A stretch of 62,429 bases of DNA, the filler included, from Hausera hauseri (lineage: Eukaryota), in the NCBI GenBank assembly GCA_046269625.1. It is 12 parts of 12 records of this genome, joined end to end, with 100 filler letters (N's around TTAATTAATTAA, not from the genome) between each part and the next. Parts side by side here need not be neighbours in the genome. Positions count along the whole stretch, not along the records: positions 34,176 to 39,212 come from JBJURY010354598.1; 11 more parts are not named here. One strand, 5' to 3'. Below are positions 24,600 through 61,383 of this stretch, piece after piece; position 1 is the stretch's first letter; every line of letters begins with the position of its first letter. The notes below the pieces were generated by a model that had not been told where the DNA came from, did not search any database, and worked only from the letters and a program-made list of their open reading frames with translations. The translations under genes and the position numbers were made by a program.

Positions 24600-25200
24600 T
24601 AATAATAAAATAAATCTCGATCTGTAAATTGAGCTATAATTTCTGAGTAGACAAATGCAGGGATTTAATATATATGAAATCAATGTACAGATAAATAAAA
24701 TCCCAAAACAATGCAACTGACTGATTTAAATCTCCGTTTTCCTCGAGGTAAAATTTGTTGAATTATGCACGACAATCAGAAGAAAATCGTAATTATTGAT
24801 CCTAGATACAACTAAAATCCAACTTTCGACGATCAGAGAATAAAGAAATTATTAATCAATTATTGCATATCGCAAAATGCCGTAAATAATAAATCAAAAT
24901 AATACAATACTCACAAAAATGGCAATAGATTTAAAAAAACGTTAAAAATCATAGGAATTACGTAATTAAAAATGGCTTTACAAAAGCAATTAAACACATT
25001 GAGTTAAAGGAAATTCTATTATTCAAACAAACTTTTTTTTGGTAATACATGTTGCACAAAATACATCACGATTAAAAGAAACGATAGGCACTTGTTTACA
25101 AACAGCAATACATGAACAAAGTCAAATAAAGTTCATTATACTAGAAAAAATAGAGACAGAAATTGCAGATTTACAAATAACTTTAATTAGAATAGATCAC
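24600..25200 (-). pseudogene. Possible decayed rhodopsin-family GPCR fragment
   Basis: VICKSAISVSIFSSIMNFI*LCSCIAVCK...CITKKKVV*II resembles TM3-ICL2-TM4, and further hydrophobic segments follow. No intact DRY motif. Confidence 0.25.
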
Positions 25201-26343
25201 ACGAATTTTCGTAGAAATCTAAAGTTCTTTTACAGATATGGATGATGAGAGCACATCGATTTCATTGAGCCAGTGAATCATTGACAGCATGAGATCCGTT
25301 TACCATATTGACGAATTTTATATGTTTTTTTTGCCCTACCTGGTTTCGATAATGAAAGGAGACTTTGCGATATGTTTGCTTTAATTTCTTGATCGTTTAA
25401 ATCCGTATTGGTTTGTTCATTTCATGCCATTGCCCGTTGGAGAAATGAAAATACAATTTTTACCGCACATGTTACATTGCCATGGATTGTTAATATTATA
25501 AAGACCCATGTAGGGGCAATACGTTGTCAGAACCGCAAATAGAATTTTGCAGTGGTTGCATTTATGAAATTTTGACAGAAAATGAATGTCGCAATCAAGG
25601 CCATCTTTTTCAATATCTGGACTATCTGTTGGCCGTATATCTGATTCGTTTTTGATTCTCGTTACGAGATTTGTTGGATTAAGTTGTCAAATGAATTTAT
25701 TTCGTTGTTGCGTTGCAATTTAAAATTTCTGACCAACCAAGAACCGGTACTTTTCCGAGTAGATTTCAGAACTAATTCGAAATGCACAAACGGAATTGGG
25801 TTCGATTGTCATTTGATAACTTTGTGTCGTTGCCTGAACGTTTGAATGCACCTGTTAGGGAATTAAATTCTTAAGGCAGGGAAATCGGATCCGACGCGAC
25901 AGCAACGAAAAACCTAACCGTGCCCAACCAAATGGGCCGGAGGGCAAACGGTCGACGCCGGCACCACAATTACACGCACTATTAATTTCAATATTGAACC
26001 CCATACTGGCGTGTTTGTATATGAGCGTACAAACAGCCCCTAGTGATTGTAGACATTTTTATTTTTATCTGGTTTATACTACCACATCCACTGAACATTT
26101 TTGATCTATTCTGGCTCCCAAGTTCGCTGCTTTTATTGCTGAACAAATTCGTGTATTCTTTAATGGGAATTATCGTTTTCTGAAGTTGTTCTTTCAGTTT
26201 ATCATACTCATTACGTAATTTTTTTACTTTCCCCTGTCGCTTTTCTTACTCATGGACATTGAGCTTTTTCAAAAGGTTATTGAATCTATTCTTTATTTCA
26301 ACCGCTCGAGTTTCACCCATGGCTTGGCGAATTTGTTCGGTTC

Positions 26344-26531
26344 GATTCTTAGATTCGTCAACATTAGCTGTGACTGGATGAGAAGCTTGATACACATCCA
26401 AGGTTGCTTACCTGGAACTATCCGATTATTCAATAGATTCTTGGATTCGTCAACATTAGCTGTGACTGGCCGAGAAGCTTGTTACACATCCAAGGTTGCT
26501 TGTCTGAGACTATGCGATTATTCAATAGATT
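26344..26531. repeat. 92-bp tandem duplication
   Basis: GATTCTT(A/G)GATTCGTCAACATTAGCTGTGACTGG...CGATTATTCAATA units start at 26344 and 26436. Confidence 0.9.
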
Positions 26532-26639
26532 TAGTAATAAAAACTTTTTTGCATTGGATTCATAGATAGAACTTTTGGGACCTTCGCTTCTCTATTTAAT
26601 CGTAGAGCTTATTTTCTCATTTGAGGTAAATGGTGGTGG

Positions 26640-26898
26640 CGCCCGAGTGCGGCACCACACTAACCCTCGTAGCAGAAGTGAAACAATAGAAAAAAGCGAA
26701 AGACATGAAAACGTAGAAGGAATAGTTTTATAAGTTATTGCGTCTTTGTATGGATAAGACGTTGAATCTTATCGATATTTTGTTCTCTGCTGTATTTGCT
26801 GAAAGTGATTGTCTTGTGTTTTTTACCATGTTGTTTGATTGTTTGCTGAGTTGGTTGGTAGGAAGTTAAATTTTGATTTGACGTGTCAGCAGCTTGAG
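26640..26898 (-). mobile_element. 3' end of a Mag-like pol with putative PPT/LTR boundary
   Basis: KTITFSKYSREQNIDKIQRLIHTKTQ* matches KTVTFRKYSKEKNIEVIQRLVHTKTE* at ~5490-5575. It is followed by GAGGGTTAG and TGTGGTGCC (putative LTR start at 26659). Confidence 0.5.
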
Positions 26899-26999
26899 NN
26901 NNNNNNNNNNNNNNNNNNNNNNNNNNNNNNNNNNNNNNNNNNTTAATTAATTAANNNNNNNNNNNNNNNNNNNNNNNNNNNNNNNNNNNNNNNNNNNNT

Positions 27000-29900
27000 G
27001 GGTTACACATCAGTTCTGTCTCTTTAAATCCATCTACACAATACTCAACAATGATTAAATTAACGTCTCAAAATCCATCTACACTGAGCATCATGACTGA
27101 GTCATCAAAGGCGACAGTTGTTAGTTCAGACACACCCATTGGTACCGGTTCTTTGAATGCATCGACGCAATCATCAACAAATAGTAAACAAACAACTATA
27201 AATCCATCTACAGTGAACATGATGAGTGAATCATCAAAGACGATAATTCCTAGTTCAGAGACACCAATTAGTACCATCTCTCTGAATCAGTCAACACAAT
27301 CATCAACAAATCCATCTACACTGAGCATGATGACTGAGTCATCAAAGGCGACAATTGCTAGTTCAGACACACCCATTGGTACCGGTTCTTTGAATGCATT
27401 GACGCAATCATCAACAAATAGTAGACTAACATCCATAAATCCGTCTACAGTGAACATGATGACTGAATCATCAAAAGAGACAATTGCTAGTTCTGGGTTA
27501 CACATCAGTTCTGTCTCTTTAAATCCATCTACACAATACTCAACAATGATTAAATTAACGTCTCAAAATCAATCTACACTGAGCATGATGACTGAGTCAT
27601 CAAAGGCGACAGTTGCTAGTTCAGACACACCCATTGGTACCGGCTCTTTGAATCCATCGACACAATCATCTACAATTAGTAAACTGACATCCATAAATCC
27701 ATCTACAGTGTACATGATGAGTGAATCATCAAAGACGATAATTCCTAGTTCAGAGACACCCATTAGTACTATCTCTCTGAATCATTCAACACAATCATCA
27801 ACAAATCCATCTACACTGAGCATGATGAATGAATCATCAAATGCGACATTTGGTAGTTCTGAGGCACCCATTAATACTGTCTACTTGAATCAATCTACAC
27901 AAAAGTCAACAATCAGTAAAGTGATATCCTTGACTCCATCAACATTAAGCAGGACAAATGAGTTATCAAAGACGACAATTGGTAGTTCAGGAACACCCAT
28001 TAGTGCTGTCCCTTTAAATCCGTCTACTCAATATTCGACAGTTAGTAAATTAACGTCCCTAAATCCATCTACAATAAATCCAGCAATTAGTAGTACTGAC
28101 ACACATATTAGTACTGTCTCTTTGAATCAGTCAACGCAATCATCAAATAGTAAACTAACATCTATAAATCCATCTACACCGAACATGATGACTGAAACAT
28201 CAAAGGCGGCAATTGGTAGTTCTGAGACACCCATTGGAAATGTCTCTTTGAATCCATCTACACGGTACTCAACAGTTAGCAAAGTAACATCTCTGAATCC
28301 ATCGAAACTAAGCAGGATGACTGAATTATCAAAAACGACAATTGCTAGTTCACAGACACCCATTGGTACCGGCTCTTTGAATCCATCAACACAATTGTCT
28401 ATAATTAGTAAACTATCATCCATAAATTCATCTTCACTGATCGTGAAGAATGAATCATCAAAGGCAACAACTGGTAGTTCTGAGACACTTATTGGCACTG
28501 TCTCTTTGAATGCATCTACGCAATATTCAACATTTACTAAACTGGCATCCATAAATCCATCTACCCTGAGCAGGATTAGTGAATCATCAAAGGGGATAAT
28601 TGGCAGTTCTGAAAGACTCAGTAATTCTGTCTCTTTGAATCAATCAACGCAGTTTCCTTCGAAATCATACTCAAGATCCTTAATTTTCAGTGGAGACATA
28701 TCCATCCATTCTTCAACAGCTTCGGGTATGATTGGTACGTCGGTCACAATTCTCGATAGTAATTCAAATTCGACGCAAATTGATATGGGTCTTTCGACAG
28801 CCAACAGCTCATTGTCACAATCTCCAATGACTCTGTTAACTGGGGCGACAATCAAAAGTACTACTATATCAACTAATATGACTTTAGGTTCATCAACTCT
28901 GTCTTCTACATCAACACTTCCAAATACCGGTACATCAGAGACTATCAGAAATTCTTCGTTGTCAACTCCATCTGCAGCATCTACAATTCGATCCAGTAGC
29001 GCTTCCTTTCAACATTCTTCCATTACTGGAATGACTGGATTATCGGATACGACTGTCCGTAGTTCGTCAACATCGACAAAGATGGATTCGGGATCCTCAA
29101 CTCCATTTATTGCATCAATAGTTTCAAATAACGACACAGCGGTTCAACATTCTTCATCTACTGAAATGAGTAGATTATCGAATACGATAATCCGTAGTTC
29201 TTCAATATCAACAAATAATATTTTAGGATTTTCAACTCCATCTACTGTATCGATACTTCCAAATAACGGCACATCAGTCCAATACTCTTCTTCTGGAATG
29301 AGTAGATTCCCGTATACAACAATCCGTATTTCTCCATTTTCAAGAAATACTGTTTCTGAATCTTCAATTCCATCTTCTGCATCAACACATCCCAGCAATG
29401 GCACATTAGTCCAACATTCGTCACCTTCTGGATTGACTGGATTATCGGATACGATAATCCGTAGTTCTTCAATATCGACAAATATTGTTTCAGGATCTTC
29501 TACGCTACCAGCCGGCTCGACATTTCAAAATATTGGCACGTCGGTCAAACATTCTTCACCCACTGGAATGAGTGGATTAACGGATACGATTATCCGTAAT
29601 TCTACAATATCAGCAAATATTGCTTCTGAATTGTCATTTCCATCTTCAGCATTGACACTTCACGGCAATGGCACATCAGTCCAATATTCTGCATCTTCTG
29701 GATTAACTGGATTATCGGATACAACTATTCAGAGTTCGTCAACATCAACAACGATAGTTTCGGGGTCTTCAACTTCACTTATTGCATCGACAGTTTCAGA
29801 TAACGGTACGTCGGTCCAATATTCTTCAACAACTGGAATGACTGGATTATCAAATACGATTTTTCACAGTTCTCCTATATCAAAAAATATTGATTCAGGA

Positions 29901-32900
29901 TATACAGCTCTATCTACGGCATCAACACTTGCAAGTAATGTCACATCGGTTCAACATTCTACATCAGCTGTAATGGATGAATTATCCCATACGATTATCC
30001 GTAGTTCTCCAGTATCAATAAATATAATTTCTGAGTCTTCAACTCCATCTGCTGAATCGACACTTCCTAATAACGGTACGTCGGTCCATCATTCTTCACC
30101 TACTGGAATGAGTATACTATCGGATGAAACTATCCGTAGTTCTTCAATATCAACAAGTATTGTTTCAGAATATTCATCTCTTTCGTCTGCGGCGATGCTT
30201 GCAAATAACGGTTCATCGGTCCAGAATTCTCCATCAACTGAATTGATTGGATTATCCTATAAGACTATACGTAGTTCTCCAATATCAACAAAAATGGTTT
30301 CTGGATCGTCAACTCTTTTTACTGCATCGACACTTCCAAATAACAGTACGTCCGTCCAACATTCTTTATCGCTTGGATTAACTGAATTATCAACTCCATC
30401 AGCTAAATCGGCACTCCCAAGTAATAGCACATCGCGCCAATATTCTTCTTTTACCCGAATGACTGAATTATTGGATACGACTATCCGTAGTTCTCAAAAA
30501 TCAACAAATGATGTCTCATTTTCATCGACGCTTCTAAATAACGGTACATCGGTCCAACATTTTTCATCTAAAACTACTGGATTATCGGATACGCCTATCC
30601 GTAGTCCTCCACTATCAACAAATACGGTTTCAGAATTATCCATTCCATATGAAAAATCGGTTATTTCAAGTTTAGGCACAACAGAACATTTTTCTACACC
30701 TAATGTAGTGACTGGATCATTCAATGTGACTATCAGTCGTTCTCCAATATCCACAGAAATTCTTTCTGAGTACTCAAGTCCATCCTCAAAATCGACCATA
30801 CTGAATAACTTTACATCGGTTGAACACTCTACACCCACCAGAATGACGGGATTATCAGATTCGACCATCCGTGGTTCTTCCATATCAACGGATATAGCTT
30901 TTGGACCTTCATCTCCTGTTGCTCAATCGACTATTTCGAATAACGGTACTTCGGTTCAGTATTCTTCGCCTACTGAAATGACTGGTTCATCAGATACGAA
31001 TATTCGCACTTCTCCACTATCAGTAGATATTACTTCTGGATCTTTATCTCTATATTCTAAATCATCAATTTTACTTAATGGCACATCAGAACGTTTTTCT
31101 ACTCACGCTGGATTATCGGATTCGACTATTCGCAGTTCTGCAATATCAACGGATTTAAATGCTGGATCTTCAACTCTGTTTTCTAAATTGACTGTAACAA
31201 ACAACAATACATCGAAACATCCTTTAAATATAACCTTTATTACGGAACCGGCGAAAATGACGCATAGTAACATTCCGACATCATCAAATAACGCAAATGA
31301 TTCTACGAGTACTTCTTCGACCTTGATGAAATCCACTCTTTTTAGTAACGTTCCATCTAAACATGACTTGGATACAACTTTTGTAACTCAGTCGTCAAAA
31401 TCGACTTATAATAGTACTCTTACATCAGATCATGACATATATCTGTTCACGGAGAAATCTTTATTTAACCAGACGAAGTTGACTACACTGGACTATGTTT
31501 CATCAGTTGAACTTCCTGGCACGGTTCCTGTAACAAATGCGTCTAAAGCCGCTATAAATACTATACAAACGACATCACATACGGGTAATGGTTCTTTAAG
31601 TGCATCTTTATCATTCTCATCGACGACGACAATTTTGAATAACATTACATCCATTGAGTCCTTAAACAGAACTCTTCCCAGCGGTTCGTCAAAATCAGCT
31701 AATCGTAGTCTTCCGACTTCAACCCATACGGCATATGTTACGACGGAATCTTCATCAAAAGAGACTACATGGACTAGGCTGACTAATTTTACATCTGTTT
31801 ATCCTTTAAATGAAACTACTTTTATAGAAACGTCTAAATTGATTAATTATAGTAGATCTACACCGTCCATTATGGGGAATGGTTCTTTAAGTACTTCTGA
31901 ATCGATCTTTGCCAAATCGACAGTACCAAATAACGTAAAGTCAGTTCATTCTTCAATCCTGACACGTGAAAGTGAGTCAACGAAATCAACTAACGATACA
32001 TTAGTAATACCGTCACATATGGATAATATTTCTTTCAGTTCACCTATATCGTATTTTTCAAAATCGTCTATTACGAGTAATATTGCATCAACTGAATCAT
32101 CCGAACCGGCTGACAGTAGTACTCTAACAGAGGCACCAAAGGTGTATGGAACGTCGATATCCGCACCAAACCAGACACCAAGTATTATATTGAGTAGTAT
32201 TGCATCAGTTCATCCTTTAACCAACACCGCTGAAACACGATCTTCCAATATGACTAAAGACAGTACATATACTCCATCAAATCTAGTTAATGTGTCATCT
32301 AGTAGTCCTTTATCGACATTCTTGAAATCGACTATGTTGCATAACGTTACATCCTTTCAGCCATCAACCTTGACACTTACTACTGAATCGTCCAAATTGA
32401 CTGAGCATATTTCTCTGCCTTCGGCACATAATACATATTGGTCCACGATGGAATCCTTCTCCAACCAGACGAAATGGACTACAAATGGTAATACTACATC
32501 ATTACATGCAATGAACACCACCCACGTTACAAAGTCATCTAAAGGAACCAACTTTAGATCTCTCCTACATTCCCATGTGTCTAATAATTCATCACATGCA
32601 TATACATCAATTTTATTCAAATCGAGTATTCTGAGCAACAGTACACCCAGTCAGTCTTCAAATACAATGCTTCCTTTTGGATGGTCAAAACCACTTAACA
32701 GTAGTACTATAACATCATCAAATAAGGGTTTTGGGTCTACGATAGAATTTGTACCTATCCCAACACAACAGACTACTGTTAATAGCGGTACATCAGTTAA
32801 TCCCTCAACATTGTCTCGTGTATTGGAGTTGTCAGTAACAACCAACAATACTACAATAACACCCTCACAAAAGATAAATGGTTCATCAATTTTATCTGCA

Positions 32901-34075
32901 TCAACTATTTGGATTAATATGACATCCATTCATCCGTCATACACTACTCTTCTAACTGGATCGTCAAAGTTGGCTAACCGTAGTACTCTCACTTCCGCAC
33001 AAAGGAGAAATACCACGACAGCATTAATACCGATCGTGACTAAGTGGACTAGTCAGAGTAATGTAGCATCAGATCATTATTTACCTACATTATTTACAAA
33101 ATCGTCGAAGACATTTAATGGTAGCATTTCAATGACATCATATATGGAAAATGGTTCTTCAAGTACTTCTGAATCGTACTTTCCAACGTCTACTGTTCGG
33201 AGTGATATTACCTCAAGTTTCACTTCAAAAACGTCTCTATCAACTGGATTGCCAAAATCAACTAACCATAGTATTCTTACTTCAACGCATAAAGATTATT
33301 TTACTACTCCATTTTCATCAAGCCATACGAACTTGACTATTCCTAGTAACATTACATCATTCTCTTCTCCAAAGACCAGTGCTCAAATACAGTCATCGAA
33401 ACCAGTTACTGAAAGTTCTGTAACACCTTTAATTATGAACAATGATTCTTCGAGTGTTTCCTCGTCATACTCCTCAACTTCCAGCATTTTGAGAAACATT
33501 TCAACGATTCATTCTTTGCAAACAACTCGTCTAACTGGTTCGTCAAACCCGGTTAGACATACTACTTTAACATCAACTCATGTGGGTCATGGTTATACAA
33601 CATCATCTGCTTCAAACGAATCAAAACGGACTATTTTGAGTAACTTTACATCAGGTCATTTCGTTAACACTACGTTTGTAACTCAATCACCGGAATCGAC
33701 AAACGGTATCGTATATACATCTTTTATTGCAGATGGTGGTTCTTTAAGTACATCTGAATCAAATTTACCCAAATCGACTCTCTTGAGTACAGTTGCATCC
33801 AGTGAGCCATCAAACATGACACTTCTAACGAGGTCATCAAAATCGGATATCTATAGCTTCCTGACTTCAGCAAGTAGGGTATTTTCTACGACGACATCTT
33901 CATCAAGACAAACAAAATGGACAATTCCGATTAACGTAACATATGTCCACCATTCCAACACGGCGTATATATCAGAGTCGTCGAAAGTGACACGTGGTAA
34001 TACTTCTACACTTTCATATGTTAGTAATCATATATCTAATACACCTGTATTTAACTTTTCTAAATCGACTCTCTC
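27000..34075 (+). CDS. Very large Ser/Thr-rich mucin-like repetitive protein, open at both contig ends
   Basis: Single uninterrupted frame of ~2358 codons across the whole contig. Diverged ~40-46-aa repeats; no Cys seen in the translation; many NxS/T sequons. Near-identical 495-bp higher-order repeat at 26999/27494. Confidence 0.85.
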
Positions 34076-34727
34076 NNNNNNNNNNNNNNNNNNNNNNNNN
34101 NNNNNNNNNNNNNNNNNNNTTAATTAATTAANNNNNNNNNNNNNNNNNNNNNNNNNNNNNNNNNNNNNNNNNNNNCATTTAAAAGTTGTGCAATTTGCAA
34201 TTGCAACTACACCTACTAGTTCATCAGGATATACACCATTTGAACTAATGTACGGAAGAAAACCACTACTCCCAATGGACATTCAGTTATTACCAGAAAG
34301 GGAAATACCTGAAGTTCAGTCTGATGAAGAAATACATGAAAGCGTTGTAAACAGTTTAGCAAATTGCTGGAAGAAAGCTAAACAAGCTATCAAACAGTAT
34401 AAACAAGATTACCAAGAATATTATAATAAAAAAGCTAAACCGCATACATTCCAACCAGGTGATAAAGTAATGGTACATTACCCAGTAGCAAAACCAGGAA
34501 AATCGTTGAAATTAACACGTACAGGTAAAGGACCCTATTTAGTAGTAAAAGTCACCCCTGAAAACATATTTATTGAAAAGGGCACTGGTAGAAAGACCAG
34601 AATCGAATGTGTATCAGCTCAAAGAGTTACAAAAGGACCAAAGGAACCAAAAGCTAAGGAAGAACCTCGATACTCGTTACGATCATTGAAACAACCAATT
34701 TTAAAACCGGCTTGTAGTTTAGAACAG

Positions 34728-35760
34728 TTATTTCTTATAATCATGATTTTCGGTTTAATATTATCCACCACGGCACAAACCTTAATAACAGACCCTGTAA
34801 TTACAAATCTAGAATTACGAGTGAAAATTTCTTGGCAGAATTCAGTAGATTCAGTAAATGGATTATTCGTAGGAGAATCGAAATATAAAGAAATCACTCA
34901 ATTAATCCTATCACCAGAAATTAATGATGCAATTTGGTTGTCAACCAAACGCTGTTCAATCCCCTTGTTAAACGAAATTTGCCTTATAGATCTCTACTTC
35001 CTAACAACTGAAATGCTACTGAAACCAAAGCAGAAAATCCTGCCTATAGCAAGACAGGTATATGTGGAAAAAATTGGCTCTACCTTTCTCTTCATTCAAG
35101 AAAAAGACCATGAACCTAAGCTGATAGACAAAGTCATGATAAAAAGGCCTACCTTGACTGATGACGTCGATTTGCAAATAACGTATTATTTCCCTAGACT
35201 ATTCAAACATAAGTCTGGCGAAAAAGCCCTGAATTTCCATATTCACATGTCATTATTGCAATTCTTCCAATTAAGACAAACAACTAGAACGACCATAACT
35301 ACTTTACCAACTTCTAGTAATAAACAAATTACTTCTTCCAAAATAGGCAAAATACCTGAAGTAATAATCATCCCCTCGGATTCATACATTGAGTTTAAAA
35401 CTTTGCAACTAGTAAATGAGCCAATATCTATAACCTGTGTAGGCAAATATCATAATATATACGCTATCATAAAAAGTATGAACGAATGACCAGATGTAAT
35501 GACCTCCAACCTGACGAAGAGTACTTGATTGTTTTTACCCAAAACTATGCAAAGACCAGACACCAAACTATTAGAACTCAAACAAGAACTCAAAAATACT
35601 TGATGCATGAGGAATTTCCAGCTTATATACCAATACAGTCAACTATTAATTCCAATATCCAGTCTAGTATGCTAAAAACCTTAGTACCTTCCATAGTAAT
35701 AATATTCCTCCTACTGTCCATATCCACACCTTTTGTAATAATCGAATTAAAAAGATTCTC
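34728..35760 (+). CDS. Pol-fused membrane protein: signal peptide, ectodomain with FN3-like domain, TM
   Basis: LFLIIMIFGLILSTTA|Q signal (34728-34775); ISITC..Y....RCNDLQPDEEYLIVF (FN3 LxPxxxY tyrosine corner); TM LVPSIVIIFLLLSISTPFVII followed by KRFSKKR. Confidence 0.6.
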
Positions 35761-37012
35761 TAAAAAACGAGCCATTTTAAATAAGACCCTATTACTGACA
35801 ACTAATTTAATATGTATAATGAGTTTTGATGTGGAGTGGACGGTTGGCGTCAAAGGGAATAAAAAATTCAACCTAATACATAAGTACAAAAAATTACATA
35901 CAAAACGATCATATAGACTAACATACTTACAAAAAGTAGAAGATTCATACACACATGGCAGCACGTTACATCAAAGACCAATAAAACTCGACTATAGAAA
36001 GTTGAGTCCCACACATATTCAAAAGCTATGTAAAGCTAATCAAACCATTCAGAATTCTTTTCAACAACCACAAAACATGAAAACAGATCATTTTGACCCG
36101 AATTTCTCACCAGAAGACAGCGCCAGTTCAGATGATTCAACTGAGACAGTAATCATCAACCCCAAACGAAAGGTTGTATTACCAGAAAAAGAACTAACCA
36201 CAGTTCTTCAACGTCCAAATCCGCCGCCACACGATACAACGAAGTTTACATTCCACAACCCTTTACAAACCGGACTCTCAAGAGGTATTCTATCTTCAGT
36301 AGTAATTCAGAGAAAGGATCCCACTAAGAATCAATCGCAAAAATTTACCACGGATATCAGACGTAAATCATTTACAATGGATGATTTACCACAAAACAAA
36401 AAATCAAAATTATGTGATTAATTAATCGAAAATTTAGAACAATCGGAGCGAGACAGAATAGATAAAAGGCCATGGAGCGAACTGTATAGTAAATTTGTCA
36501 AAATATACCAACCAGGAAGAAATCTTTTCCCGTCTAAATTCTACGCTAGAATACAAGAATTGGCCGAAACATCTTCAGACATTCTATACCCAGAATGTAG
36601 GTACATCGATAATACGCTGAAAACTACTACAATCAATGAAAGATCGTTCAGAATATTGCGTATTGAAACACCTTCAATGAATGTTAATCTTAATACTATG
36701 CTCCATCTAGACCAGCAATTTGAGAAAGTATTATTGCATGTTGCACAAGGGAAAGTGCAATTCAAAGCGGATGTCGATATGTACGATGAGTTACAATTAC
36801 AAAATTCCTTGTTAACCTCCAAGATGACGATGCGTATAAAGTCCACAGCCTTTCAAACAAAGATATTAATGCGTATATTATCAGCACCACTAATCATGGG
36901 AATAGAAATTTGTCAACCATTGGATACTCAATTAGGTTACCAACCTCCAATATTTTACCAAGTACCAAAAGAACCGAATATTTACAACTATCGGCTAACA
37001 AAAGCCAATAAC

Positions 37013-37470
37013 TTTCGATATTTGGCCGTTTCACTCGCGTATGCACCAAACGGTGATCCAGTTCCTATAGAAGTGATTATAGCGGATCAAGCCAAGTTAA
37101 TCATATACCACGCATTTATTAATCCGAGAAGAAAAGTGTCAAACACTAATGAACACCACCACGGATTATCAATGGCCCTAATTCAGCAAGCCGAGGACGA
37201 AGAGATAGTTCGATCAGAAGTTATCAAGTTTCTATACGGGTATATCGTAATTAGTGCTAACACCAGCACAATACTAAAGATACTCCGTATACCCTCTACT
37301 TTTGTCTATGGTGTAATGGATATATTATCCACGTCAAATACAAAAGCTCGCTTTGCCGAGGCCAAGATTAAGCCCAACTTAACCCAATTACCCAAAATGT
37401 ACAACCTATCATACGAATTTCCTAAAGCAGCTGAACCGATTCTGCAAGCTGTTATCGACATATATAATCA
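37013..37470 (+). CDS. DEDDh (REX4/ISG20/DnaQ-like) exonuclease-fold domain, probably inactive
   Basis: YLAVSLA...EVIIAD...IYHAFINPRRKVSNTNEHHHGLSMALIQQAEDEEIVRSEVIKFLYGYIVISAN...LKILRI follows the DEDDh pattern. ExoI DxE, ExoII D and ExoIII H/D positions appear substituted. Confidence 0.6.
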
Positions 37471-38381
37471 ACTATTAAATAGTTGTACTAACGAAAAATG
37501 GGAATGGGATTGAATTCCCCCGGACAATAATCTAATTAGCGATGAAGGTTTCATGAGGATATACAAGAAGTACCATCCAGATTACCAATATGAAGATCTA
37601 AGAAAGACAGACGTAGCTAATCCAAGCTCGTCCTATGAACACCTAATACAGCAAATGAAAACCAACACACCAGAAATGCTAAAAACAGCAATCACCGATT
37701 CACTGGAACTATCAATATTGCTATACGGAGCAATTCAACTGACTATTAACGTCTACTTTAAACAACAGTCTTTAACAATTATGAATCAATATCAGCAAGT
37801 CCAGCCTAACCCCAGGCTTGGAACTATGATTGGAATGGTTTACAGGCATTCCACACAGAATACCTTACATCTAGTGATGGTTGGGGCCCATCTTGAGACT
37901 ATCAAAAGTCTCAATCACACACCGGTATTGGTACATCAACCAATACCTATGCAGTTGGACCAGATACCCATCCCTAAACCAAGGGGTGCGAAGACTATCA
38001 ATTTGAAAGGAACAAGCCGAGAAAAACTCAAGATGTTACTGTACCGAAAGGATGATCAGTTTTTGTTGGAAAATCTTTATAATATACAGAAGACAATTCA
38101 GAAGGACGAAGAAGTACCTAAAGACTCTTTAACAATTCAATTGTGATTTTGCTTAACTTTCTATCATGATATTTTAGCTTATTTTTCCTTCTTTACTTAA
38201 TGTATGACTTCTACTATTTTTATATGCTTTTGCACTCTGTATTTTTATTGACATTATTACGATTTCACTTTGTCTTTCGCTACATCAAATACATCATCGC
38301 GCTTTGTACGCTGTATATTATTATGCTACAGTTGTCGAATAATTAAATAACGATCTAATTTTGTGACCAAAATTTTTTTAC

Positions 38382-39212
38382 AGGGGGGAGAGATGTTAGG
38401 GTTATGAAGTTAGCACAAATATAAATTTATGAATTTATTAAAAACATTTGTTTAAGAAATTTCTAAAAAATTTAAAGATTAAAATTAAAAAGTTTACTAT
38501 TCTTAAGACGTTAAGTTAAATCTTCAATGAAATTTTTAAATTTAAAGTTTAAAGAAGAAAAATTAAAAATTAATTTAATAAAAAGTCAATAAATTTAATT
38601 AATTAAGTCAATTAAAAGAAAAAACTATACTACGCAAAGTATAGTTTAATAACGAATCGATACTACATAAAATATGTTAAATTTGATAAATTAAAATCAG
38701 TACTACACAAAGTACTGCATGTCCAAAGAAAAACTCATAATAAGATAAAGAACATTACCACGTAAATCACAAAAACTAAAGAACTATTACCCCACGATTT
38801 ACTAAAGTTCAAAAAACACCCACAGTCAATAAAATGGTATAAATACCCAAGTAAAAATTAGAATGACGAACACAAAATCTTAAAGGTTAAATTAACCGAT
38901 TTTAATTGCTAGACCTTGCCGTTAGATTCGGAAACAAGGTTCTTTTCAATATCATTCGACAACTGTAGCAAGTTAGTTTTTGTAATTGCTTGCCGTGATT
39001 CGGATACCAATACAATTTTTTTCAATCCGTGTTTATTTCATTTTGGGAAGAGTCCACGAAGAATTTTTCAGTAAGTATTTCAATAATTTTTTCGTGTTCG
39101 TTAATTTTCTCATCTTCTTCGTAAATAATTTAAATTTTTCCCCTTAATTAAGAGCGACAGCGGCCGAACCACAAGTAGGCCAAGCTATTATACACCAATT
39201 AAATAAAATCAA
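38382..39212 (+). repeat. Polypurine tract and 3' LTR (truncated)
   Basis: AGGGGGGAGAGA (38382-38393) is immediately followed by TGTTAGGG (LTR start 38394). TATAAATA at ~38838; AATAAA at ~39202. Confidence 0.75.
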
Positions 39213-39312: not shown

Positions 39313-41250
39313 TAAATTTTCCAGGTAGGGATGCGATTCTTCATTCCCCTTCTTCTCTCGTCAAACTTCCTCCAGGTATTTTTTAAAAGTGCTGAATTTG
39401 TATTGCCTTCCTTTGTTTGTGTCCCAGTTTTGTTCAGTCAGTCTATAATAAACTTTCCCTTCTGCCAAGTATATATATACGTCACTGTGCTGCCCTAATT
39501 CAAATTTCAATAAATTTTGTAGACTATAGCTTCGTGCATCTTCATTTTTCCTCATCGCATATAATCTCAACACTCGATTCTCTTCGACAATTCCCTATAG
39601 ATGGTTAGGAATTTCATCCACTTTATTGTATTCAATCGCTGTCTAGTTCTGTAGATCCACGTGAATGTGCCTGTATATGGATTTGGAGTTCGGGGTGATT
39701 ATAATCGCATTCTCTTGCAAAAATCCATCGATGTCCGTACAAGAATTGCTGCTGGTCGCCATAATACTCACCAATCTGAAATAAAACAAATAAAGGTTAA
39801 TCCTAAGACAGATCTTTGTTTCATTACAAAACAATTTCACTGTCTGATGATAGAAAAACCTGATATGTAGTTGTCAGGTTATTTTATCATATAAATCACT
39901 TTGGTAAAGCACGATTATCCCTCCATCCTTATTTTTGTGCTGTTTTCTACAATTTTTGGCAAATATATAAAATGACTCAATTGATATTAATAAGACAAAC
40001 GCTGACACTGCGATAGTAGGCATAATAGATGAAGTTGTTAATTCAATTGTTTTCTGTGTTGCCATATATGTAGTAATTGTGTTTTCTATGTCTTGACCCT
40101 TTTGTGAATCTGGGTAATTACTTTCTGCTAAAGTGCTTAAGGTGATTGCCTGATTTTGCTTTCCTGCTGAATTAATTTGTATTATGTATTCTGTCTGAGG
40201 TTTTAATGTGTTACATTCTACTTGTCGTGTATTCTGTATAAGTTTTACTTTTTGTCCGTCATATAAGGTTCGACACTTTATTTCTATATCGTAGTTTAAT
40301 CCTTCCTCAACAAAGAACACTATTCTATACTGATAAACCAAAAATCTGATAGGTATGTTTTTAATTTCTGTTTTAGATATATTGTTCATTGTAACAATTC
40401 GTGCGGTCGACTTTTTAGTCGGGTTTCCATTGAAATTTTCCAAATTCTATTTTCTGGATAGTAAGTTCGTAATTGTATACTTGATTGATTAAGCCGTATC
40501 TCATATAAGTCAAATCTTATTTTGAATTCCTGGTTCACGGGTATTTTACAACACGGATGTTGCACGCCTGCGAGAATGGAACAATATCCTATTTTCGGAG
40601 TTGGTCCTATTGCTGCCTCAAACACGATACTAATTTCCCGACTGACGGTTAGCTCCGTCCGAGTATTTACTTGGATACATTGTCTTTCCTTATTCACAAA
40701 GATTCTCTGGATATTTTCGTTTAGTAGTCTTATGTCCGGGTCAGTGGATCGTAACAATTCGTTAAGTTTTATTTCATGACGCCTATTCCAAGCAGGAATG
40801 ACTAGTTGGAATTGTGGTTTGTTTCATAAATTTTAAATAATTTTGGTAGGTACAGACAATAGGTCAGATTATAAGTATATCCGAAATCTATGTCGCAACA
40901 TTACGTACGCTTTCCAGGCTTAAAATCACAATTCTTTGTTTCTTTTGTTATTACGTCATGTAAGACAATTTGGATCCATACAGAATTTCGGTGTGGTTTC
41001 CGTGTCTTAAATCCAATGCATGTGGAGTTAGGTGAGTAATAGTGGATCGTTATTGCTTGTAATAATCTTATATCTTCTTGTTTTTGATTCCCTTCGACTG
41101 TCGGTTTCCTTTCAGTTTCAATAACCTCCAATCTTGCTCCATTTTTCCGAACTCCGTAATTGTCGTGCCACCCTTTAGCTTGTGTTTTCGGGATATAGGA
41201 GGCAATTAGCGATAACGCTAAAATTATTTAAACATACGATATTGGTCTGT
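39313..41250 (-). pseudogene. Accessory region after integrase: FN3-like ectodomain + TM + further ORF remnants
   Basis: IEIKCRTLY...VECNTLKPQTEYIIQIN, TM IMPTIAVSAFVLLISIESFYIFA then KNCRK. Homologous to 34728-35760 (also QLRTYYP vs LQITYYFP). Confidence 0.6.
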
Positions 41251-41289
41251 TAATTATGGAGGATGTTTTTGTTTTCTTTTTATCTTGAT

Positions 41290-43936
41290 GCGAGCTAGAT
41301 CGCAAATTGTAACGTATTTCTGGTTTTATTTCTGTTTTAGCAACTCTCTGAATAGATACTACCTCTTCTTTGCCATTTTCATTAATGTACACCGTAGTTG
41401 GTGTGGTTAGAATGACTTCATAAGGTCCTCGTCTGTGCGAGTGAGTTTTAATGATGTACCTTTCTTTGCAATTGGATAATGTACGTAATCCCAGTTTCCT
41501 TTTTCTAAATCATGAGGTTTGGCATTTTTATCATATTGTTTCTTAAACTGCTCTTGATACTCAAGAGTAAGCGTTTTCGCTATATCCCAAAATTTCTATA
41601 ATCTTATTCGCAAAACTTCTGCGAAGTTCGGTTCTAAATCGTCTGGATTTGCGTCATACGGAGTCATTCCTAAGTCCGTAGGTAAAATCGCTTCGCGTCC
41701 GTACATCATAAAAAATGGTGTAAATCCTGTGGCGGGATATAGAGTAATATTGATAGCGAATTGTGTTCCTTCTAAAACTTCATCCCAGTTCTTTTGATTC
41801 TTTGCTACTACGGTAGATAGGACTCGTATGACTGTTGCATTCATACGTTCGACCATCCCATTGCACTGAGGGTGATATGCGGTAGTGGTTAGCCGTTCAA
41901 TTTTGAAGATTTTAGAAATTCTGTCAAATAATTTGCTTGTAAAATTTCTTCCTCTATCGGTTAGTATTTGATCGGGCGGTCCGTATTTGCAAATGATTTT
42001 CCTTACTACTGCGTCGGCTAGAGTTTCCGCCTTTTGATCAATTAGTGCGATCAATTCCACAAAGTGTGTTAAATGATCTACGCATGTCAAAATATATTTA
42101 TTATTTTTATGAGTTGCAGGTAAAGGTTTTACTATATCCATAGGCATAGCTTGCATAGGTCTGTCTGGTATGTCGATTGGTTTTAATTCTGCTACATAGT
42201 TTTTCAACTTTTTTGTTTCATTGCACAAACTTCGCAAGCGTCCACTCAATTTTTCACATCAATATAAACGCTTGGTCAGTAGTACTTATTCAATATTCTT
42301 TCTAGTTTTTTCTTTCATGACATATGTCCAACTAAATGTGAATCGTGTTCAGCCATTAATACTTCTGTTCGTAATCCTTTCGGGATAACTACCAGTTTCC
42401 GTCCCTTCCGTTCGTAATATAGAATATTATCCGGGTTCGATGCATAATATTTTTATCCGTGTCGCTGTAAGTGTTTCTTTAGTTGACGCCCTTTTGATAT
42501 CTTATCTTTCTCGTAAAATTTAACTATTTGTTGGATAACTTTATCTTTAGCTTGTTCTGCAGCAATTGTGATTGCTTTATTTAGTGTCAAGGTCCGTTGT
42601 CGCTCGACTAAATCTTCAAGTTGAGCTTTCTTCATGGTTGTAATCGTATTTGTCTTTGTTTTAAGTCTTGATAAGGCGTCTGCGTCTACATGTTTACTTC
42701 CGGGTTTATATTGAAATTCAGTATTGTACCGCGAAATTTCCTCAATCCATCGATTCAGTGTACACGTCAAGTTATTAGCCCGTCCCTTTAGCGTGGTAAA
42801 AGTTTTATGAACGGTTACTATAATAAATTTTTGTTCGTAGACATAGACATTAAAATGTCTCTAGGCTTCTTTTACGGCTAGTGTTTCTAGTTCGGTTACT
42901 GAATAATTTTTATCAGCTTTTTTAAGCGATCGTCCTCCATATGCAATTGGATGTTTTAGTTCTTCGTCTTCTCGTTTTTGAGCCAATTCGTAACCAATTC
43001 CTTCTTTACTTGCGTCTGTTTTAATTATAAATGGTAAATTGAAATCGGCGTATCTAAACACTGGTTCACTTGTTAGAATTTTCTTCATTTCGTCGAATGC
43101 TTTCTGTTCAACATAGGTCCATTTCCATTTGATGCCTTTTTTCAATAGCCTATGTAATGGCGCATTTATTTTCGAATTGTCTGTTACGTAAGTGGCATAA
43201 TATCCGAATAAGCCTAACCAATGCCCTACTTCTTTCTGATTCTGTGGTTCCATACAATCCGATATTTTGTTTCATAAGGATTTGTATGGCTTCGGTCCTC
43301 CTTCTCCGACTATGTGTCCAATATAAAATACAGCGTTTTGTGCCCATTTACATTTCTTGGGATACAGCTTCAATCCTGCCTGTTCTAATCGCATAGGAGT
43401 ATCCTCGATGTCTTTTAGATGTTCGTCCTCTGTTTTTGATGCTATCATTACATTGTCTAAATATGCGAACGCGTGATCTAGTCCCATTAACATCTTATTC
43501 ATCATTCTAGTGAAAATAGCTGGGCCGGTTGTTATACCAAACGGCATGACGTTAAATTCGTAAACTCCATCGTGTGTCTTAAATGCTGTCTTATAACGGT
43601 CATCTTCAATTTCTACTTGCCAGTATCTTGATTGTAAATCCAGCGTGGTAAACCATTTTGCTTCTGATAGACGGTCTAAAACTTCTTTCACTGATGGTAG
43701 TGGAAATGAATCCTTCATCATAAGCATATTTAAGGCTCTAATCTATACAGAATCGGTGTTTAGTGGTATCTTTTTTCTTAACTATGAGTATCGGCGAATA
43801 CCAAGATCGGTAGCTTGGTCGTATTGTCGGCTTTTCACATATGTTCTACTTTGGTTATTTCGGGCTTTAATGAATGCGGTTGTGGATACCATTTATGCAT
43901 CTTTTGCTCTTCCAAGTCTTTTGTACCAATTTATTG
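41290..43936 (-). mobile_element. Decayed Ty3/Gypsy pol (RT-RH-IN), same family as 34176-39212
   Basis: RT (DSFPLP, YKTAFKTHDGVYEFNVMPFG, AYLDN), RH (TDASKEGIG, NYSVTELE, HVDADALSR), IN (LTDRGRNFTS, YHPQCNGMVER). The shared VHYPIAKKGTSLKLT / GPY / RYNLRS motifs match the + strand copy. Confidence 0.93.
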
Positions 43937-48385: not shown

Positions 48386-50868
48386 CACGAACCTAGAGAT
48401 TCGAATCAAAATGGAAAATGAAAAGCGAACACAAATATATAGTTTGAGAAACCGAATTATGTCTCCAAACAACGAAGAAACCAAATACGTAATAAAAGCT
48501 TGTATCATAGAATTTGATGAATATAAGAATGAATTTAGTTGTGCCAGCCGGATTATGAAATTTATAAAAGTTCCAGATGATGAACTAAAGGATGTATATA
48601 AGATGCTAGACAAAGCTATATTGGCTAAGTCAATAATCGCCAATCAATTGTCGGAATGGTCCGAATTAGTAGCGCGACTAAGTAAATTAGTGGAAAACCG
48701 TAGGAAAGAATTTCCAGAGAGCGAACCTTTTACAAAGAAACAGTTAGAAGAAAGCGCATGTAATTTAGATACAATACAAGCAGAAATAGACATCCGAACG
48801 CGATTCAAAGCTTTACGGCGACTCAATTTTATGAAGAAGAAGCAAGAAACGATGATACTGGAAGTGATTTATAAAATGATCGAAGAGACAAACTTTACAG
48901 AAAAGCGAAATATGACTTGTAATTTTTATCCAAGATTAAGAAATATCCGACTAGAAGGAGTCCAACATTTAACAGATAAACCTATCGACGAGACTTTAAT
49001 TCAGGATATCGAAACCCTAAGCATTTGTCCGGGACATACAGCAACTTTAACAGAAACAATAAAATTCTTTCACAAACCACAAGAGTGGATGACGCGATCG
49101 GATCAGAATTTTTATACCGAGTTGACAAAGATAAGAAATGATCAACATCTCAATTTCCAGGAATCTAAATTCATAAAAAAATTGTTGGATGCGATGGACC
49201 CCGACTCAAAGGTCATAAATAAATGTATGAGCGGAGATTAATGATGAGAAGATGAAACATTTAATACCAAGACTACAGCAAGTAGAAGAAACGTGCATCA
49301 GAACAAAACAAGGAGCAACAAGACTAGATGAACTGGCAAAAGAGTTCGAAAGCTATCGGAATAAGTACGCCTTTACGGAATTAGAAATCAGAAATAAGCG
49401 AGAATTTGTACAACAGTGGCAAAGAGATGTAATCATGGAACTAACTGATTATCGCCAAAAGGGATTCATAAATTCTAATGAATTAGGCGAATTACTGAGA
49501 ATGATTCAGTATGCCTATGGAAACGGGATAGGTTTCCGAACTACGCAGATGAAAGAAATACAACCAAGATTGAAAGAAATCCGAGAAAATGTGCAAAGAA
49601 CGAAGACAGCCTTAATAGACTATGGGCTTCCAGATGTTGAGAATGAACCGGAATGGGATGCGTACTTAGATGCAATAACTGCCGAAAAACCCGTGACTCC
49701 AGTACAACTAAATGTGATAGAAATAAGGTCCGCAGAACAGGATATTCAATGTGGAAATGCTCCTGGATTCAGCGCTAGCTGAAAAAGATTTAATTGAACT
49801 AATTAACGTGAACCTTGCTGAAAGTAAGTTAAGACAATTTTCTAGTGAGAATACAATTTATAGCACGGTGCCGAAATTTTTGATAAGGAAATACGCTAAA
49901 ATCTTGAAGGCTAAACCTGAGGTAGCGATAAAAGTGTTGGTACCATCCGAGTGGATGGACGAAAAATAATGTGAACTAACTACATATTCCTATGTGAGGG
50001 ACGTAAAAGAGTGGTTATTAAATAATGGTGGAAGAGATAAGCTAAAGTATAGATTTTACTTTAGAGGTAGAATACTCGACGACTTAGAACAATTAGTAGA
50101 TGTAGGGATTATCCCAGACAAAACAAATAGGATAGTTGCAACAATAGCCAATGAACAAACAAAAGAAGAGGCCACGTGTAAAGCCAAAACAGAGCAATGC
50201 GTAGGACAAATTATGGGAGTCCGACATGCTGCTATGTACTTCGAGTATTTACAGACGGATCAGGACAAGGAACAATACGATATAAATTTAGTACCACTGA
50301 GTGAAACAACAACTAAAGATCCAAGGCCGAAACGTCTGGTTGGTAGGCCTAAAAAGACGCGAGAAGTTGACTATAATGGAGAATTGATTAGAGAATTGAG
50401 ACGGATATCGATTCCAACTGACAGTACAAATAATGAGGAATTAAGCGAGTTAATAAAGAATTTGATACGAATTGTAAATTATTCGAGCCTTCGAGGTGAT
50501 ACACTAGATGATAAAGAAAAGGTAATATTTAATGCAACTAGAATGATGAGAAGTTCACGATTTAAACTGTCAAAAGGTAATTTAACCGACAAATCGGTAA
50601 TCAAAAAGATCATGGTAGAAAACACCACTGACGAATTAAGGAAAGTATTACTATACTTAGCTATCAAAGTAAACCCCAGTCGAGAGAATGAAATGAATAG
50701 AGCTACAAACTTAGCACGAAGAGCGGCGAGAAAGCTGCCCGCGAAGTAACTTGGTCAAAACTATTTGACAAGGAAGAAGACAAACGGACTAGTAATAGTA
50801 ATGAACTCGACGATATGCTACGTAATTTGGTAACAACCGATAATAATAATCGGAAAAATGAATCAAAT
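48386..50868 (+). pseudogene. Disrupted long polyprotein-like ORF of unknown function upstream of a viral glycoprotein
   Basis: Abutting ORFs 48411-49241, 49252-49782, 49751-49969 and 49994-50749, separated only by stops or frameshifts. Charged and helical; no introns evident. Confidence 0.55.
49928..50146 (+). pseudogene. Internal ubiquitin-like domain
   Basis: IKVLVP...VRDVKEWL...KYRFYFRGRILDDLEQLVDVGIIPDKTNRIVATI fits the Ub fold pattern (RLIFxGxxLxDxxxLxDxGI). No terminal GG; one in-frame stop. Confidence 0.7.
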
Positions 50869-52982: not shown

Positions 52983-53424
52983 GGCACCAAATGCTACGGG
53001 ATCCTACGGAAAATGTGTTACCGACAGTCCGTTGATGATCCCAGGATGTTGTATTCTCCGAGTGAATCTCGAAATATAGAGACTAAATCGCCTGTTTGGG
53101 AAAGCCCAAGGTTAAGAACCTTTCGGAACATGGAACCGCACACTAACAATCGAGAACCATTAACCAGTACTCAGGAAGCAGAAGATTTAAACCTCGAAAA
53201 CAATGAATTATACCCAAACGGTGAGTTAAGGCAACTGGCCGAGCACATAGTATCCTCCCCAGAAATCCGAATCAACGAACATAAGATATCAGCGGCAAAA
53301 CGCTCAAAGGATGCATCAAACTGNNNNNNNNNNNNNNNNNNNNNNNNNNNNNNNNNNNNNNNNNNNNTTAATTAATTAANNNNNNNNNNNNNNNNNNNNN
53401 NNNNNNNNNNNNNNNNNNNNNNNA

Positions 53425-61000: not shown

Positions 61001-61383
61001 TGTTGCATCATTTTCAACTGTTGAGTGAAAAATGTTGTGCCTATAGCTGACGCGTGTGTGGTTGTAGCCGCAATTGGGCGAGAGTTATTTGTATGGAGGA
61101 TTTCAAAGGATTTATCAGCCATTATGGCCAATTTTTCAATTGCAGTGGACTCATCGACGACGGTAAGGAAGGTTCTGATTGAGGTGGGCTAAGACGATAA
61201 GAAATAACGGAGAATTATGTCCGCGTTATTCATAGGCGTCATACCTAAGGCGCTAAGCTGCAATATGGCCGATGGGAGAAAGTCGGATGGCTTTTGCTTT
61301 CCTATCGCATGGTCGTTGAAGCATTTTTGTATAATGTTGTCTATCGAAGGATCCGTGATATGGATTGTAGGAAATAAATCCAA
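58004..61383 (-). mobile_element. Decayed Mag-like Gypsy copy (gag-PR-RT-RH-IN)
   Basis: IGKQKPSDFL, two CxxH..AR.C..GC knuckles, A_AAA_AAC-TAA at 60631-60640, FLIDS, RT (YIDDIL), TTDAS, YSTFDR, HLDLVGPLP, MDQGPQFE. Confidence 0.92.

What the first reader, a model, noticed from the sequence alone, without database searches (positions are those of the whole stretch)
37013..37470. Catalytically dead DEDDh exonuclease-like domain inside an LTR retrotransposon
Seen: the REX4/ISG20/DnaQ-like spacing is retained, but all acidic catalytic positions look substituted even though this copy has few other lesions. Known: DEDDh domains serve in viral immune evasion (arenavirus NP, nidovirus ExoN), and inactive DEDD folds act in RNA pathways (Exuperantia; Maelstrom lacks the DEDD tetrad). 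Inference: a possible RNA-binding anti-silencing or RNA-transport factor encoded by the element.
Basis: partly seen in the sequence, partly recalled or inferred. Interest (0 to 1): 0.72.

Follow-up and report, generated by a model that had tools for sequence, protein, structure and literature searches.

The report
Dead exonuclease kept by a retrotransposon
A virus-like jumping gene carries an extra gene predicted to fold like an RNA-trimming enzyme but with all five cutting residues replaced; related copies conserve the protein, so it likely grips and shields RNA instead of cutting it.

Summary
Observation confirmed and extended. Window 37010-37507 encodes a DEDDh fold of REX4/ISG20 type (model vs ISG20: Z 19.6, rmsd 2.2 A), and all five catalytic positions are replaced (A, S, I, K, I). 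This is not simple decay. Among related copies in two sequencing runs, 36 of the 40 best-supported differences (113 in all) are synonymous (32% expected), none lies in a catalytic-position codon, and no indel is listed. Of six distant relatives (19-24% identity), two keep D-E-D-H-D and four lack the ExoI D and E. One active relative sits at the same place in a giant Ty3/Gypsy element with Burro-like env-before-pol order. Best reading: an accessory pseudo-enzyme that likely binds the element's RNA and shields it from host decay or silencing (0.45, untested). Retrotransposon DEDDy and AlkB cargo are known in catalytically intact form; I found no paper on this dead fusion. The scan noted the same protein kind earlier on another genome (e1-9291447). 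New variant of a known kind.

The parts
34176..34690 (+). Integrase C-terminal part of a Ty3/Gypsy-type pol; cut by the contig start
   Evidence: 36% identity, E 4e-28 to the L001 pol; Pfam MLVIN_C E 0.1 only
34691..35486 (+). In-frame extension of pol: hydrophobic, signal-peptide-like segment, then an ectodomain-like stretch
   Evidence: Hydropathy peak 2.12 at 34731; same layout after the integrase of L001; 13 of 19 listed copy differences synonymous
35456..36421 (+). ORF in a shifted frame: FN3-like repeat (judged by eye), transmembrane segment, then a region of unknown nature; ends in a stop at 36419-36421
   Evidence: hydropathy peak 2.57 at 35693; no Pfam FN3 hit for this ORF
36461..36931 (+). 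AlkB-like / 2OG-oxygenase double-stranded beta-helix domain (residues 14-170 of P0001) without a conserved metal triad
   Evidence: VIA Z 11.8, rmsd 3.3, 144 aligned to ALKBH7; Z 11.3 to Ofd2; shared with all 6 relatives; His columns
37010..37507 (+). DEDDh (REX4/ISG20-type) exonuclease fold with all five catalytic positions replaced (A202, S204, I284, K335, I340)
   Evidence: copy differences
37511..37513 (+). In-frame stop that is nearly private to this copy
   Evidence: At 37513 the laid contigs differ in depth 438 of 446 (run X1, 12 contigs) and 20.1 of 20.1 (run X2, 3 contigs)
37514..38146 (+). 210-codon continuation in the same frame; unidentified third domain (OTU-like only by eye, from recalled motifs)
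   Evidence: No informative hit in Pfam, NCBIfam, PHROGs, PDB sequences or the protein collection
38382..38393 (+). Polypurine tract, preceded by a T-run
   Evidence: Read from the sequence
38394..39212 (+). Probable start of the 3' LTR (TG...); its far end is not defined
   Evidence: TG directly after the polypurine tract; no second LTR on this contig

Best explanation
This is an accessory gene of a Ty3/Gypsy retrotransposon whose product is predicted to join an AlkB-like barrel to a DEDDh exonuclease fold; its five catalytic positions are replaced, related copies differ mostly at silent sites, and it likely acts as a non-cutting RNA-binding module that shields the element's RNA from host decay or silencing. 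Shown in the sequence or by calls: position between integrase and polypurine tract, replacement of D-E-D-H-D, conservation of the protein among copies, homology of both domains with six relatives. Predicted (about 0.95): the two folds. Inferred (about 0.9): no canonical exonuclease activity, because the four metal-binding carboxylates are gone. Inferred (about 0.85): the protein was under purifying selection while the family spread, so it has a job. Inferred and untested (0.45 overall): both former substrate pockets, one shaped for a nucleic-acid 3' end and one for a methylated base, now only hold RNA. Bound to the element's transcript, the protein would keep host 3'-5' exonucleases or small-RNA trimming and silencing factors off it, or help its export and packaging.
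For: Fold. Catalytic loss. Selection: 36 of 40 shown differences synonymous against 31.7% expected (binomial p 2e-14, rough omega 0.05), no indel row. Listed differences flank the ExoI codons (37024, 37028, 37030; 68-73% of X1 depth) and the ExoIII codons (37420, 37432, 37442-47), so the same contigs span those codons without a listed change. Depth of the loss: four relatives at 20-30% domain identity also lack ExoI D and E; three of them have the same Ala for the first Asp and Asn for Glu. In an unrooted tree the dead forms lie on one side of a 97/98 branch. Position: an active relative occupies the same slot in L001, and the neighbouring element in the window has the AlkB-like part in that slot. 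Precedent: DEDD pseudo-exonucleases Exu and PXL bind RNA (PMC13659232, passages); an orchid Gypsy AlkB binds and demethylates RNA (PMC9289625, abstract).
Against: No call tests RNA binding, expression or silencing. The DEDD-like domain is near neutral (15 K+R, 14 D+E), as is the AlkB-like domain of this copy (+1; relatives +3 to +7). PXL needs a basic patch and has a SAM-like partner domain; no such partner is identified here. Only 40 of 113 difference rows were shown; if all 73 hidden rows were non-synonymous the fraction would fall to 32%, the neutral value. The tree has long branches and no outgroup; 44 of 500 label shuffles did as well. Genomic context is known for only 1 of the 6 relatives (through its cluster member P0011). 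This copy itself is broken by stops on both sides of the ORF.
Confidence: 0.45

Rival explanations
1. The dead domains are protein-binding decoys or adaptors: they mimic a host REXO4/ISG20-like nuclease or AlkB-family enzyme and tie up its partners, or link a host target to ubiquitin machinery.
For: Near-neutral charge. C-terminal parts vary between relatives: P0006 ends in a RING finger (Pfam E 2.6e-7), and the window has an unidentified third domain. The vaccinia C16 N-terminal domains are a structural hit (Foldseek E 3e-5; PDB title 'C16 bound to Ku70/Ku80'). Burro elements carry apoptosis and ubiquitin-related domains (PMC6431247, passages).
Against: No partner is known or predicted. Both folds derive from nucleic-acid-handling enzymes, and the active relatives have the same two-domain layout.
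Confidence: 0.27
2. The domain is a non-canonical nuclease that lost DEDDh but cuts by another site, or the AlkB-like part binds a metal or metabolite and does the work.
For: Maelstrom swapped DEDD for an ECHC zinc site (PMC7968707, passages). A Glu in the P-I-E motif is kept in all five dead forms. His106 of the AlkB-like part is kept in 6 of 7 rows, and this copy has H95-x-D97.
Against: No Cys in the window's DEDD-like domain. The His-95 column reads H,L,P,P,P,H,Q, so the HxD motif is not conserved, and no conserved distal His exists.
Confidence: 0.12
3. The protein handles the element's DNA or particle (binding cDNA ends, nuclear import or integration targeting) and has no part in RNA silencing.
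For: DEDDh and AlkB folds also act on single-stranded DNA (structural hits include DnaQ, ExoX, TREX1). The gene lies downstream of integrase.
Against: The closest structural and profile matches are ISG20, ISG20L2 and SDN1. In L001 the gene is a separate ORF behind a splice-acceptor-like site, not part of pol.
Confidence: 0.12
4. The domain is a decayed remnant of an active exonuclease with no present role.
For: This copy has three frame breaks. Two of six relatives are intact. Dead forms sit on long branches.
Against: Five of five catalytic positions changed, needing at least 10 base changes, while the fold is kept. 36 of 40 shown copy differences are synonymous. Four distant relatives share the loss.
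Confidence: 0.04

Closest known systems
DEDDy-type ORF3 of bdelloid rotifer Juno/Vesta LTR retrotransposons and Terminons (Rodriguez et al. 2017, PMC5408684; parts 1-3 of 5 read)
   Same: A DnaQ-like exonuclease fold carried as an extra ORF downstream of pol in Ty3/Gypsy-type elements; function untested there too.
   Different: The rotifer ORFs are RNase D-like DEDDy with invariant residues intact (DEED). Here the fold is REX4/ISG20-like DEDDh, catalytic residues are gone, and an AlkB-like domain is fused in front. The rotifer proteins were not aligned here.
Burro giant Gypsy elements of planarians (Arkhipova and Yushenova 2019, PMC6431247; passages)
   Same: L001, which carries the active relative, has a mononegavirus-type fusion glycoprotein (PF24664, E 8.7e-84) in frame upstream of protease-RT-RNase H-integrase in one ORF of over 3000 aa, plus accessory ORFs.
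   Different: The passages list MATH, BIR, BCL2, ankyrin, SUMO-like and dUTPase domains for Burro, and no DEDD or AlkB domain. For the window's own element the 5' half is missing, so its env order is not shown.
Pseudo-exonucleases Exuperantia and PML PXL (PMC13659232; passages)
   Same: DEDD fold without the catalytic acids, used for RNA binding; Exu is a structural hit (5l80, Z 11.0, rmsd 3.6).
   Different: They are cellular, pair the EXO-like domain with a SAM-like domain, and PXL resembles TREX1/Plex9. The window domain is much closer to ISG20 (Z 19.6) and is element-borne.
ISG20 / ISG20L2 / REX4 / SDN1 DEDDh exonucleases
   Same: Best structural and profile matches; likely the family the domain came from.
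   Different: They are active enzymes; the window domain keeps none of the five catalytic residues.
AlkB (2-ODD) ORF of orchid Ty3/Gypsy elements (PMC9289625; abstract and passages)
   Same: AlkB-type fold as accessory cargo of large Gypsy elements.
   Different: The orchid protein is an active m6A demethylase close to plant enzymes. Here the barrel is detected only by structure, lacks a conserved metal triad and is fused to DEDDh.
Arenavirus NP C-terminal ExoN and Maelstrom (PMC7968707; passages)
   Same: Same fold class; weak Pfam and PDB sequence hits to arenavirus NP.
   Different: NP is an active nuclease, and both have an ECHC zinc site; the window domain has no cysteine and no DEDDh.

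Membership tests
DEDDh (DnaQ-like) fold superfamily | RNase H-like DnaQ core with ExoI-III spacing | tested here: met
   VIA Z 19.6, rmsd 2.2, 160 aligned to ISG20; Foldseek E 7.8e-8; profile E 1.7e-19; predicted model, not a solved structure
Active DEDDh exonucleases (REX4/ISG20) | Catalytic D, E (ExoI), D (ExoII), H and D (ExoIII) | tested here: not met
   A202, S204, I284, K335, I340; 0 of 5 kept
Active DEDDh exonucleases (REX4/ISG20) | 3'-5' exonuclease activity | not testable with these tools
   Needs a biochemical assay
Maelstrom / arenavirus NP type | ECHC zinc tetrad | tested here: not met
   0 Cys in residues 196-352; only the P-x-E Glu is present
Exuperantia / PXL EXO-SAM pseudo-nucleases | Loss of DEDD acids | tested here: met
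Exuperantia / PXL EXO-SAM pseudo-nucleases | SAM-like domain after the EXO-like domain | tested here: inconclusive
   The downstream 210-codon part has no informative hit and only a pLDDT-35 model
Exuperantia / PXL EXO-SAM pseudo-nucleases | RNA binding | not testable with these tools
   Net charge +1 is no test
AlkB / 2OG-Fe(II) oxygenases | Double-stranded beta-helix fold | tested here: met
   Z 11.8, rmsd 3.3, 144 aligned to ALKBH7; several other 2OG-oxygenase chains at Z 9.7-11.3; no Pfam hit
AlkB / 2OG-Fe(II) oxygenases | Conserved HxD...H iron triad | tested here: not met
   H95-x-D97 in this copy, but the column reads H,L,P,P,P,H,Q and no later His is conserved apart from His106; the register to AlkB is inferred, not read from a residue-level superposition
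Ty3/Gypsy LTR retrotransposons | Integrase of Gypsy-type pol, PPT and LTR edge | tested here: met
Ty3/Gypsy LTR retrotransposons | PR-RT-RH-IN order and paired LTRs in this copy | tested here: inconclusive
   Contig starts inside the integrase; order shown only for L001 and RT-RH-IN for the neighbouring element
Burro elements | Fusion glycoprotein in frame between gag and pol | tested here: inconclusive
   Glycoprotein upstream of protease and RT in L001, gag not on the fetched stretch; not on the window's contig
Rotifer DEDDy ORF3 | DEDDy (RNase D-like) subtype with intact residues | tested here: not met
   Active relatives have His in ExoIII, the window none of the five
OTU deubiquitinases (third domain) | OTU fold and Cys-His dyad | tested here: inconclusive
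   Resemblance recalled, by eye; no OTU row in Pfam at E up to 10; the 210 codons contain no Cys

The most novel reading that the evidence does not exclude
A lineage of large, envelope-carrying Ty3/Gypsy elements encodes a dedicated counter-defence protein made of two or three dead enzymes in a row (AlkB-like, DEDDh-like, possibly OTU-like). It went from trimming RNA to binding it, and it suppresses host small-RNA or RNA-decay surveillance. Active and dead relatives coexist, giving a natural series for how a transposon turns an enzyme into a silencing suppressor.
Probability: 0.2. Interest if true: 0.78.

Novelty: new variant of a known kind. Interest (0 to 1): 0.52.

Why it matters
Few animal LTR retrotransposons have a known protein that counters host silencing (own knowledge), and the role of their DEDD-type extra ORFs has been open since 2017 (PMC5408684). 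Here the dead form appears to be kept by selection, and intact relatives with the same two-domain layout exist. That allows a direct side-by-side test of cutting versus binding. It also adds an AlkB-like + DEDDh fusion to the cargo of giant Gypsy elements. If the protein only scaffolds, the interest drops to an annotation-level addition.

Tried and rejected
No whole genome is held for the window, so copies could be judged only through laid contigs. Word-based protein searches found nothing for the ORF or the third domain, and only P0009 for alignment A1. DNA scans for relatives found none in viral contigs or, with the window protein, in metagenome contigs; the active-pair alignment gave 1 locus. 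A single-sequence fold of the DEDD + third domain was unusable (pLDDT 34.8) and was not searched. The third domain stays unidentified; phrog_6306 at E 0.005 was not followed. The Atlas gave no result for window sequences; for the dead relative P0009 it returned RNase_T clusters at 0.90-0.91. No RNA holder was listed among 3 runs; this says nothing on expression. No splice-acceptor-like site passed my simple filter on 34176-38400, although one did in L001 and one in the neighbouring element, so how this ORF starts is open; the first Met after the 36419 stop is residue 86, inside the barrel. Whether the 36419 stop is shared by other copies was not visible (40 of 1095 rows shown). BLASTP found no significant match between the post-integrase membrane-protein regions of the window and L001 (best E 0.21); the shared layout rests on hydropathy and reading by eye. 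Maelstrom and Exu membership were considered and not adopted. No complex prediction was run, as no partner is claimed. Literature: searches listed no paper on a catalytically dead DEDDh or an AlkB-DEDDh fusion in a retrotransposon. PMC13524379 (env-carrying Gypsy survey) has 0 occurrences of DEDD, Burro or fibronectin in its main text (term search only). PMC6338049, part 1 of 4 read, names the DnaQ-like domain as a known accessory domain. Supplements, the original Burro paper and Repbase entries were not seen and may annotate this ORF.

Full report
Setting. The window is a string of about twelve unrelated contigs joined by N44-TTAATTAATTAA-N44 spacers. The finding lies on the 5037-base contig 34176-39212, the 3' half of an LTR retrotransposon on the + strand. 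It opens inside an integrase (36% identity, E 4e-28, to the pol of a Ty3/Gypsy element). The frame runs on into a hydrophobic, signal-like segment; after a frame change near 35460-35486 come an FN3-like stretch (by eye) and a transmembrane segment. The same frame continues through a stop at 36419, a 363-codon ORF (36422-37510), a stop at 37511 and a 210-codon ORF. A polypurine tract at 38382-38393 and TG follow. The host is probably an invertebrate animal (inference); no genome is held.

The fold is real. Alone, the stretch gives sub-threshold hits to arenavirus NP C-terminal domain (Pfam E 1.9e-4), PolC exonuclease (E 0.027) and arenavirus NP (E 0.04). A search of 1.84 billion representatives gave six relatives, E 2.8e-8 to 6.7e-4, 19-24% identical to the ORF. 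Their joint profile hits ISG20L2 (E 1.7e-19), SDN1 and ISG20. The model built on that alignment (mean pLDDT 73.3, pTM 0.50) superposes on ISG20 with Z 19.6 and rmsd 2.2 over 160 residues. A profile of the two active relatives alone scores the window domain 32.7 bits against at most 7.7 for 1000 shuffles. The model drew on the alignment, which includes the active relatives, so model and profile are not independent evidence.

The catalytic residues are gone. P0004 and P0008 keep D, E, D, H, D. The window has A202, S204, I284, K335 and I340 in those columns. P0005, P0006, P0007 and P0009 also lack ExoI D and E. P0007 ends before ExoII. P0005 has Glu in the last Asp column; P0006 and P0009 keep none of the five, although P0009 has an Asp one column before the ExoII site. 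Three of the four share Ala at the first Asp and Asn at the Glu, close to the window's Ala and Ser. An unrooted tree puts active and dead forms on two sides of a 97/98 branch. With long branches, no outgroup and 44 of 500 shuffles as good, one loss is allowed but not shown.

The dead form is conserved, not decayed. Three runs hold the stretch. Laid contigs show a multi-copy family with 80-100% identity. In 36990-37480, 40 of 113 difference rows were shown, ranked by support. Of these, 36 are synonymous against 31.7% expected for the same transition/transversion mix (p 2e-14, rough omega 0.05); none falls in the five catalytic-position codons, and no indel is listed. Rows at 37024, 37028 and 37030 (68-73% of X1 depth) bracket the ExoI codons, so a majority change in those codons would have ranked with them. 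Limits: 73 rows unseen (worst case 36 of 113, the neutral value), sites not independent, contigs collapse rare variants, X1 may be the source sample. For comparison, 6 of 9 rows in the integrase and 13 of 19 in the ectodomain-like part are synonymous.

The protein is larger than the finding. Residues 14-170 of the ORF model as a double-stranded beta-helix matching ALKBH7 (Z 11.8, rmsd 3.3, 144 aligned), Ofd2 and ALKBH5, with vaccinia C16 and cupins among Foldseek hits. All six relatives share it (60.9 bits against at most 12.5 for shuffles). No iron triad is conserved, even in the relatives with an intact nuclease. The stop at 37511-13 is nearly private to this copy: contigs differ at 37513 in depth 438 of 446 (X1) and 20.1 of 20.1 (X2). 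The 210 codons behind it therefore probably belong to the same protein. They remain unidentified; an OTU likeness is by eye and from recalled motifs only. The relatives have other C-terminal parts, P0006 a RING finger.

The slot is conserved across elements. Locus L001 holds a 99% match to active P0008. It is a giant Gypsy element: one ORF of over 3012 aa with a mononegavirus-type fusion glycoprotein (PF24664, E 8.7e-84), two aspartic-protease stretches, RT, RNase H and integrase, then a membrane-protein-like extension; a 222-aa ORF and the AlkB-like + DEDDh ORF follow. The env-before-pol order recalls Burro elements (PMC6431247). The adjacent window contig (39313-43936, - strand) is a second element with RT-RH-IN, an FN3-like + transmembrane ORF and the AlkB-like part in the same slot (35-44% identity to P0007 and P0006), cut by the contig end. 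Context of the other five relatives is unknown.

Mechanism. With the metal-binding carboxylates absent, canonical two-metal hydrolysis is unlikely (established DEDD chemistry; PMC13659232). Selection implies a job. Both folds come from enzymes that grip nucleic acid, and Exu and PXL show that a DEDD pseudo-nuclease can bind RNA. I therefore favour an RNA-binding shield or chaperone for the element's transcript (0.45). A protein-binding decoy (0.27), non-canonical catalysis (0.12), a DNA- or particle-level role (0.12) and decay (0.04) follow.

Comparison and novelty. DEDD-type extra ORFs are known from rotifer LTR elements, with intact residues and of DEDDy type (PMC5408684). An active AlkB is known from orchid Gypsy elements (PMC9289625). 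Eight literature searches listed nothing on a dead DEDDh or an AlkB-DEDDh fusion in retrotransposons; supplements and Repbase were not seen. I met it after reaching this reading; it is unchecked and not independent. New here are the copy-level sign of selection and the private stop. Verdict: real, new variant of a known kind, function untested; interest 0.52.

Noticed in passing
window, whole: The window joins about twelve unrelated contigs with N44-TTAATTAATTAA-N44 spacers; neighbourhood across spacers has no meaning.
   Followed up: yes
window 39313-43936 (- strand): Second Gypsy element with RT-RH-IN, an FN3-like (Pfam E 0.047) + transmembrane ORF and a stop-broken AlkB-like ORF at 39843-39382, cut by the contig end.
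   Followed up: partly
window 39776 (- strand); L001 9998: Splice-acceptor-like T-rich...YAG sites shortly before the ATG of the AlkB-like ORF in both elements, suggesting spliced accessory messages. At 39776 a donor-like GTGAGT follows 4 bases later.
   Followed up: partly
window 48386-53323: Broken ORFs with a Monjiviricetes fusion glycoprotein (PF24664, E 1.5e-29 and 7e-10), 27% identical to the L001 glycoprotein; possibly the 5' part of an element of the same kind.
   Followed up: partly
L001 2-9040: Polyprotein with glycoprotein upstream of two tandem aspartic-protease stretches, and an in-frame membrane-protein-like extension after the integrase.
   Followed up: partly
L001 9207-9875: 222-aa accessory ORF without a Pfam hit, coiled-coil-like by eye.
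   Followed up: no
window 37514-38143: Third domain looks OTU-like by eye (recalled motifs) but has no cysteine; unverified.
   Followed up: partly
window 36737-36739 (His106 of P0001): His kept in 6 of 7 rows inside the AlkB-like barrel, and an invariant I-x-N-x-L-K motif at residues 62-67; candidate functional site.
   Followed up: no
protein P0006: Dead relative of 870 aa ending in a C3HC4 RING finger.
   Followed up: no
window 26999-34075: 2358-codon Ser/Thr-rich open frame with 129- and 135-base repeats, mucin-like.
   Followed up: no
window 54410-55102: ORF that resembles a Polinton/Maverick capsid by eye (recalled; not tested).
   Followed up: no
window 5466-12873, 21808-26898, 58004-62429: Three further decayed LTR-retrotransposon pol regions on the - strand, related to each other.
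   Followed up: no
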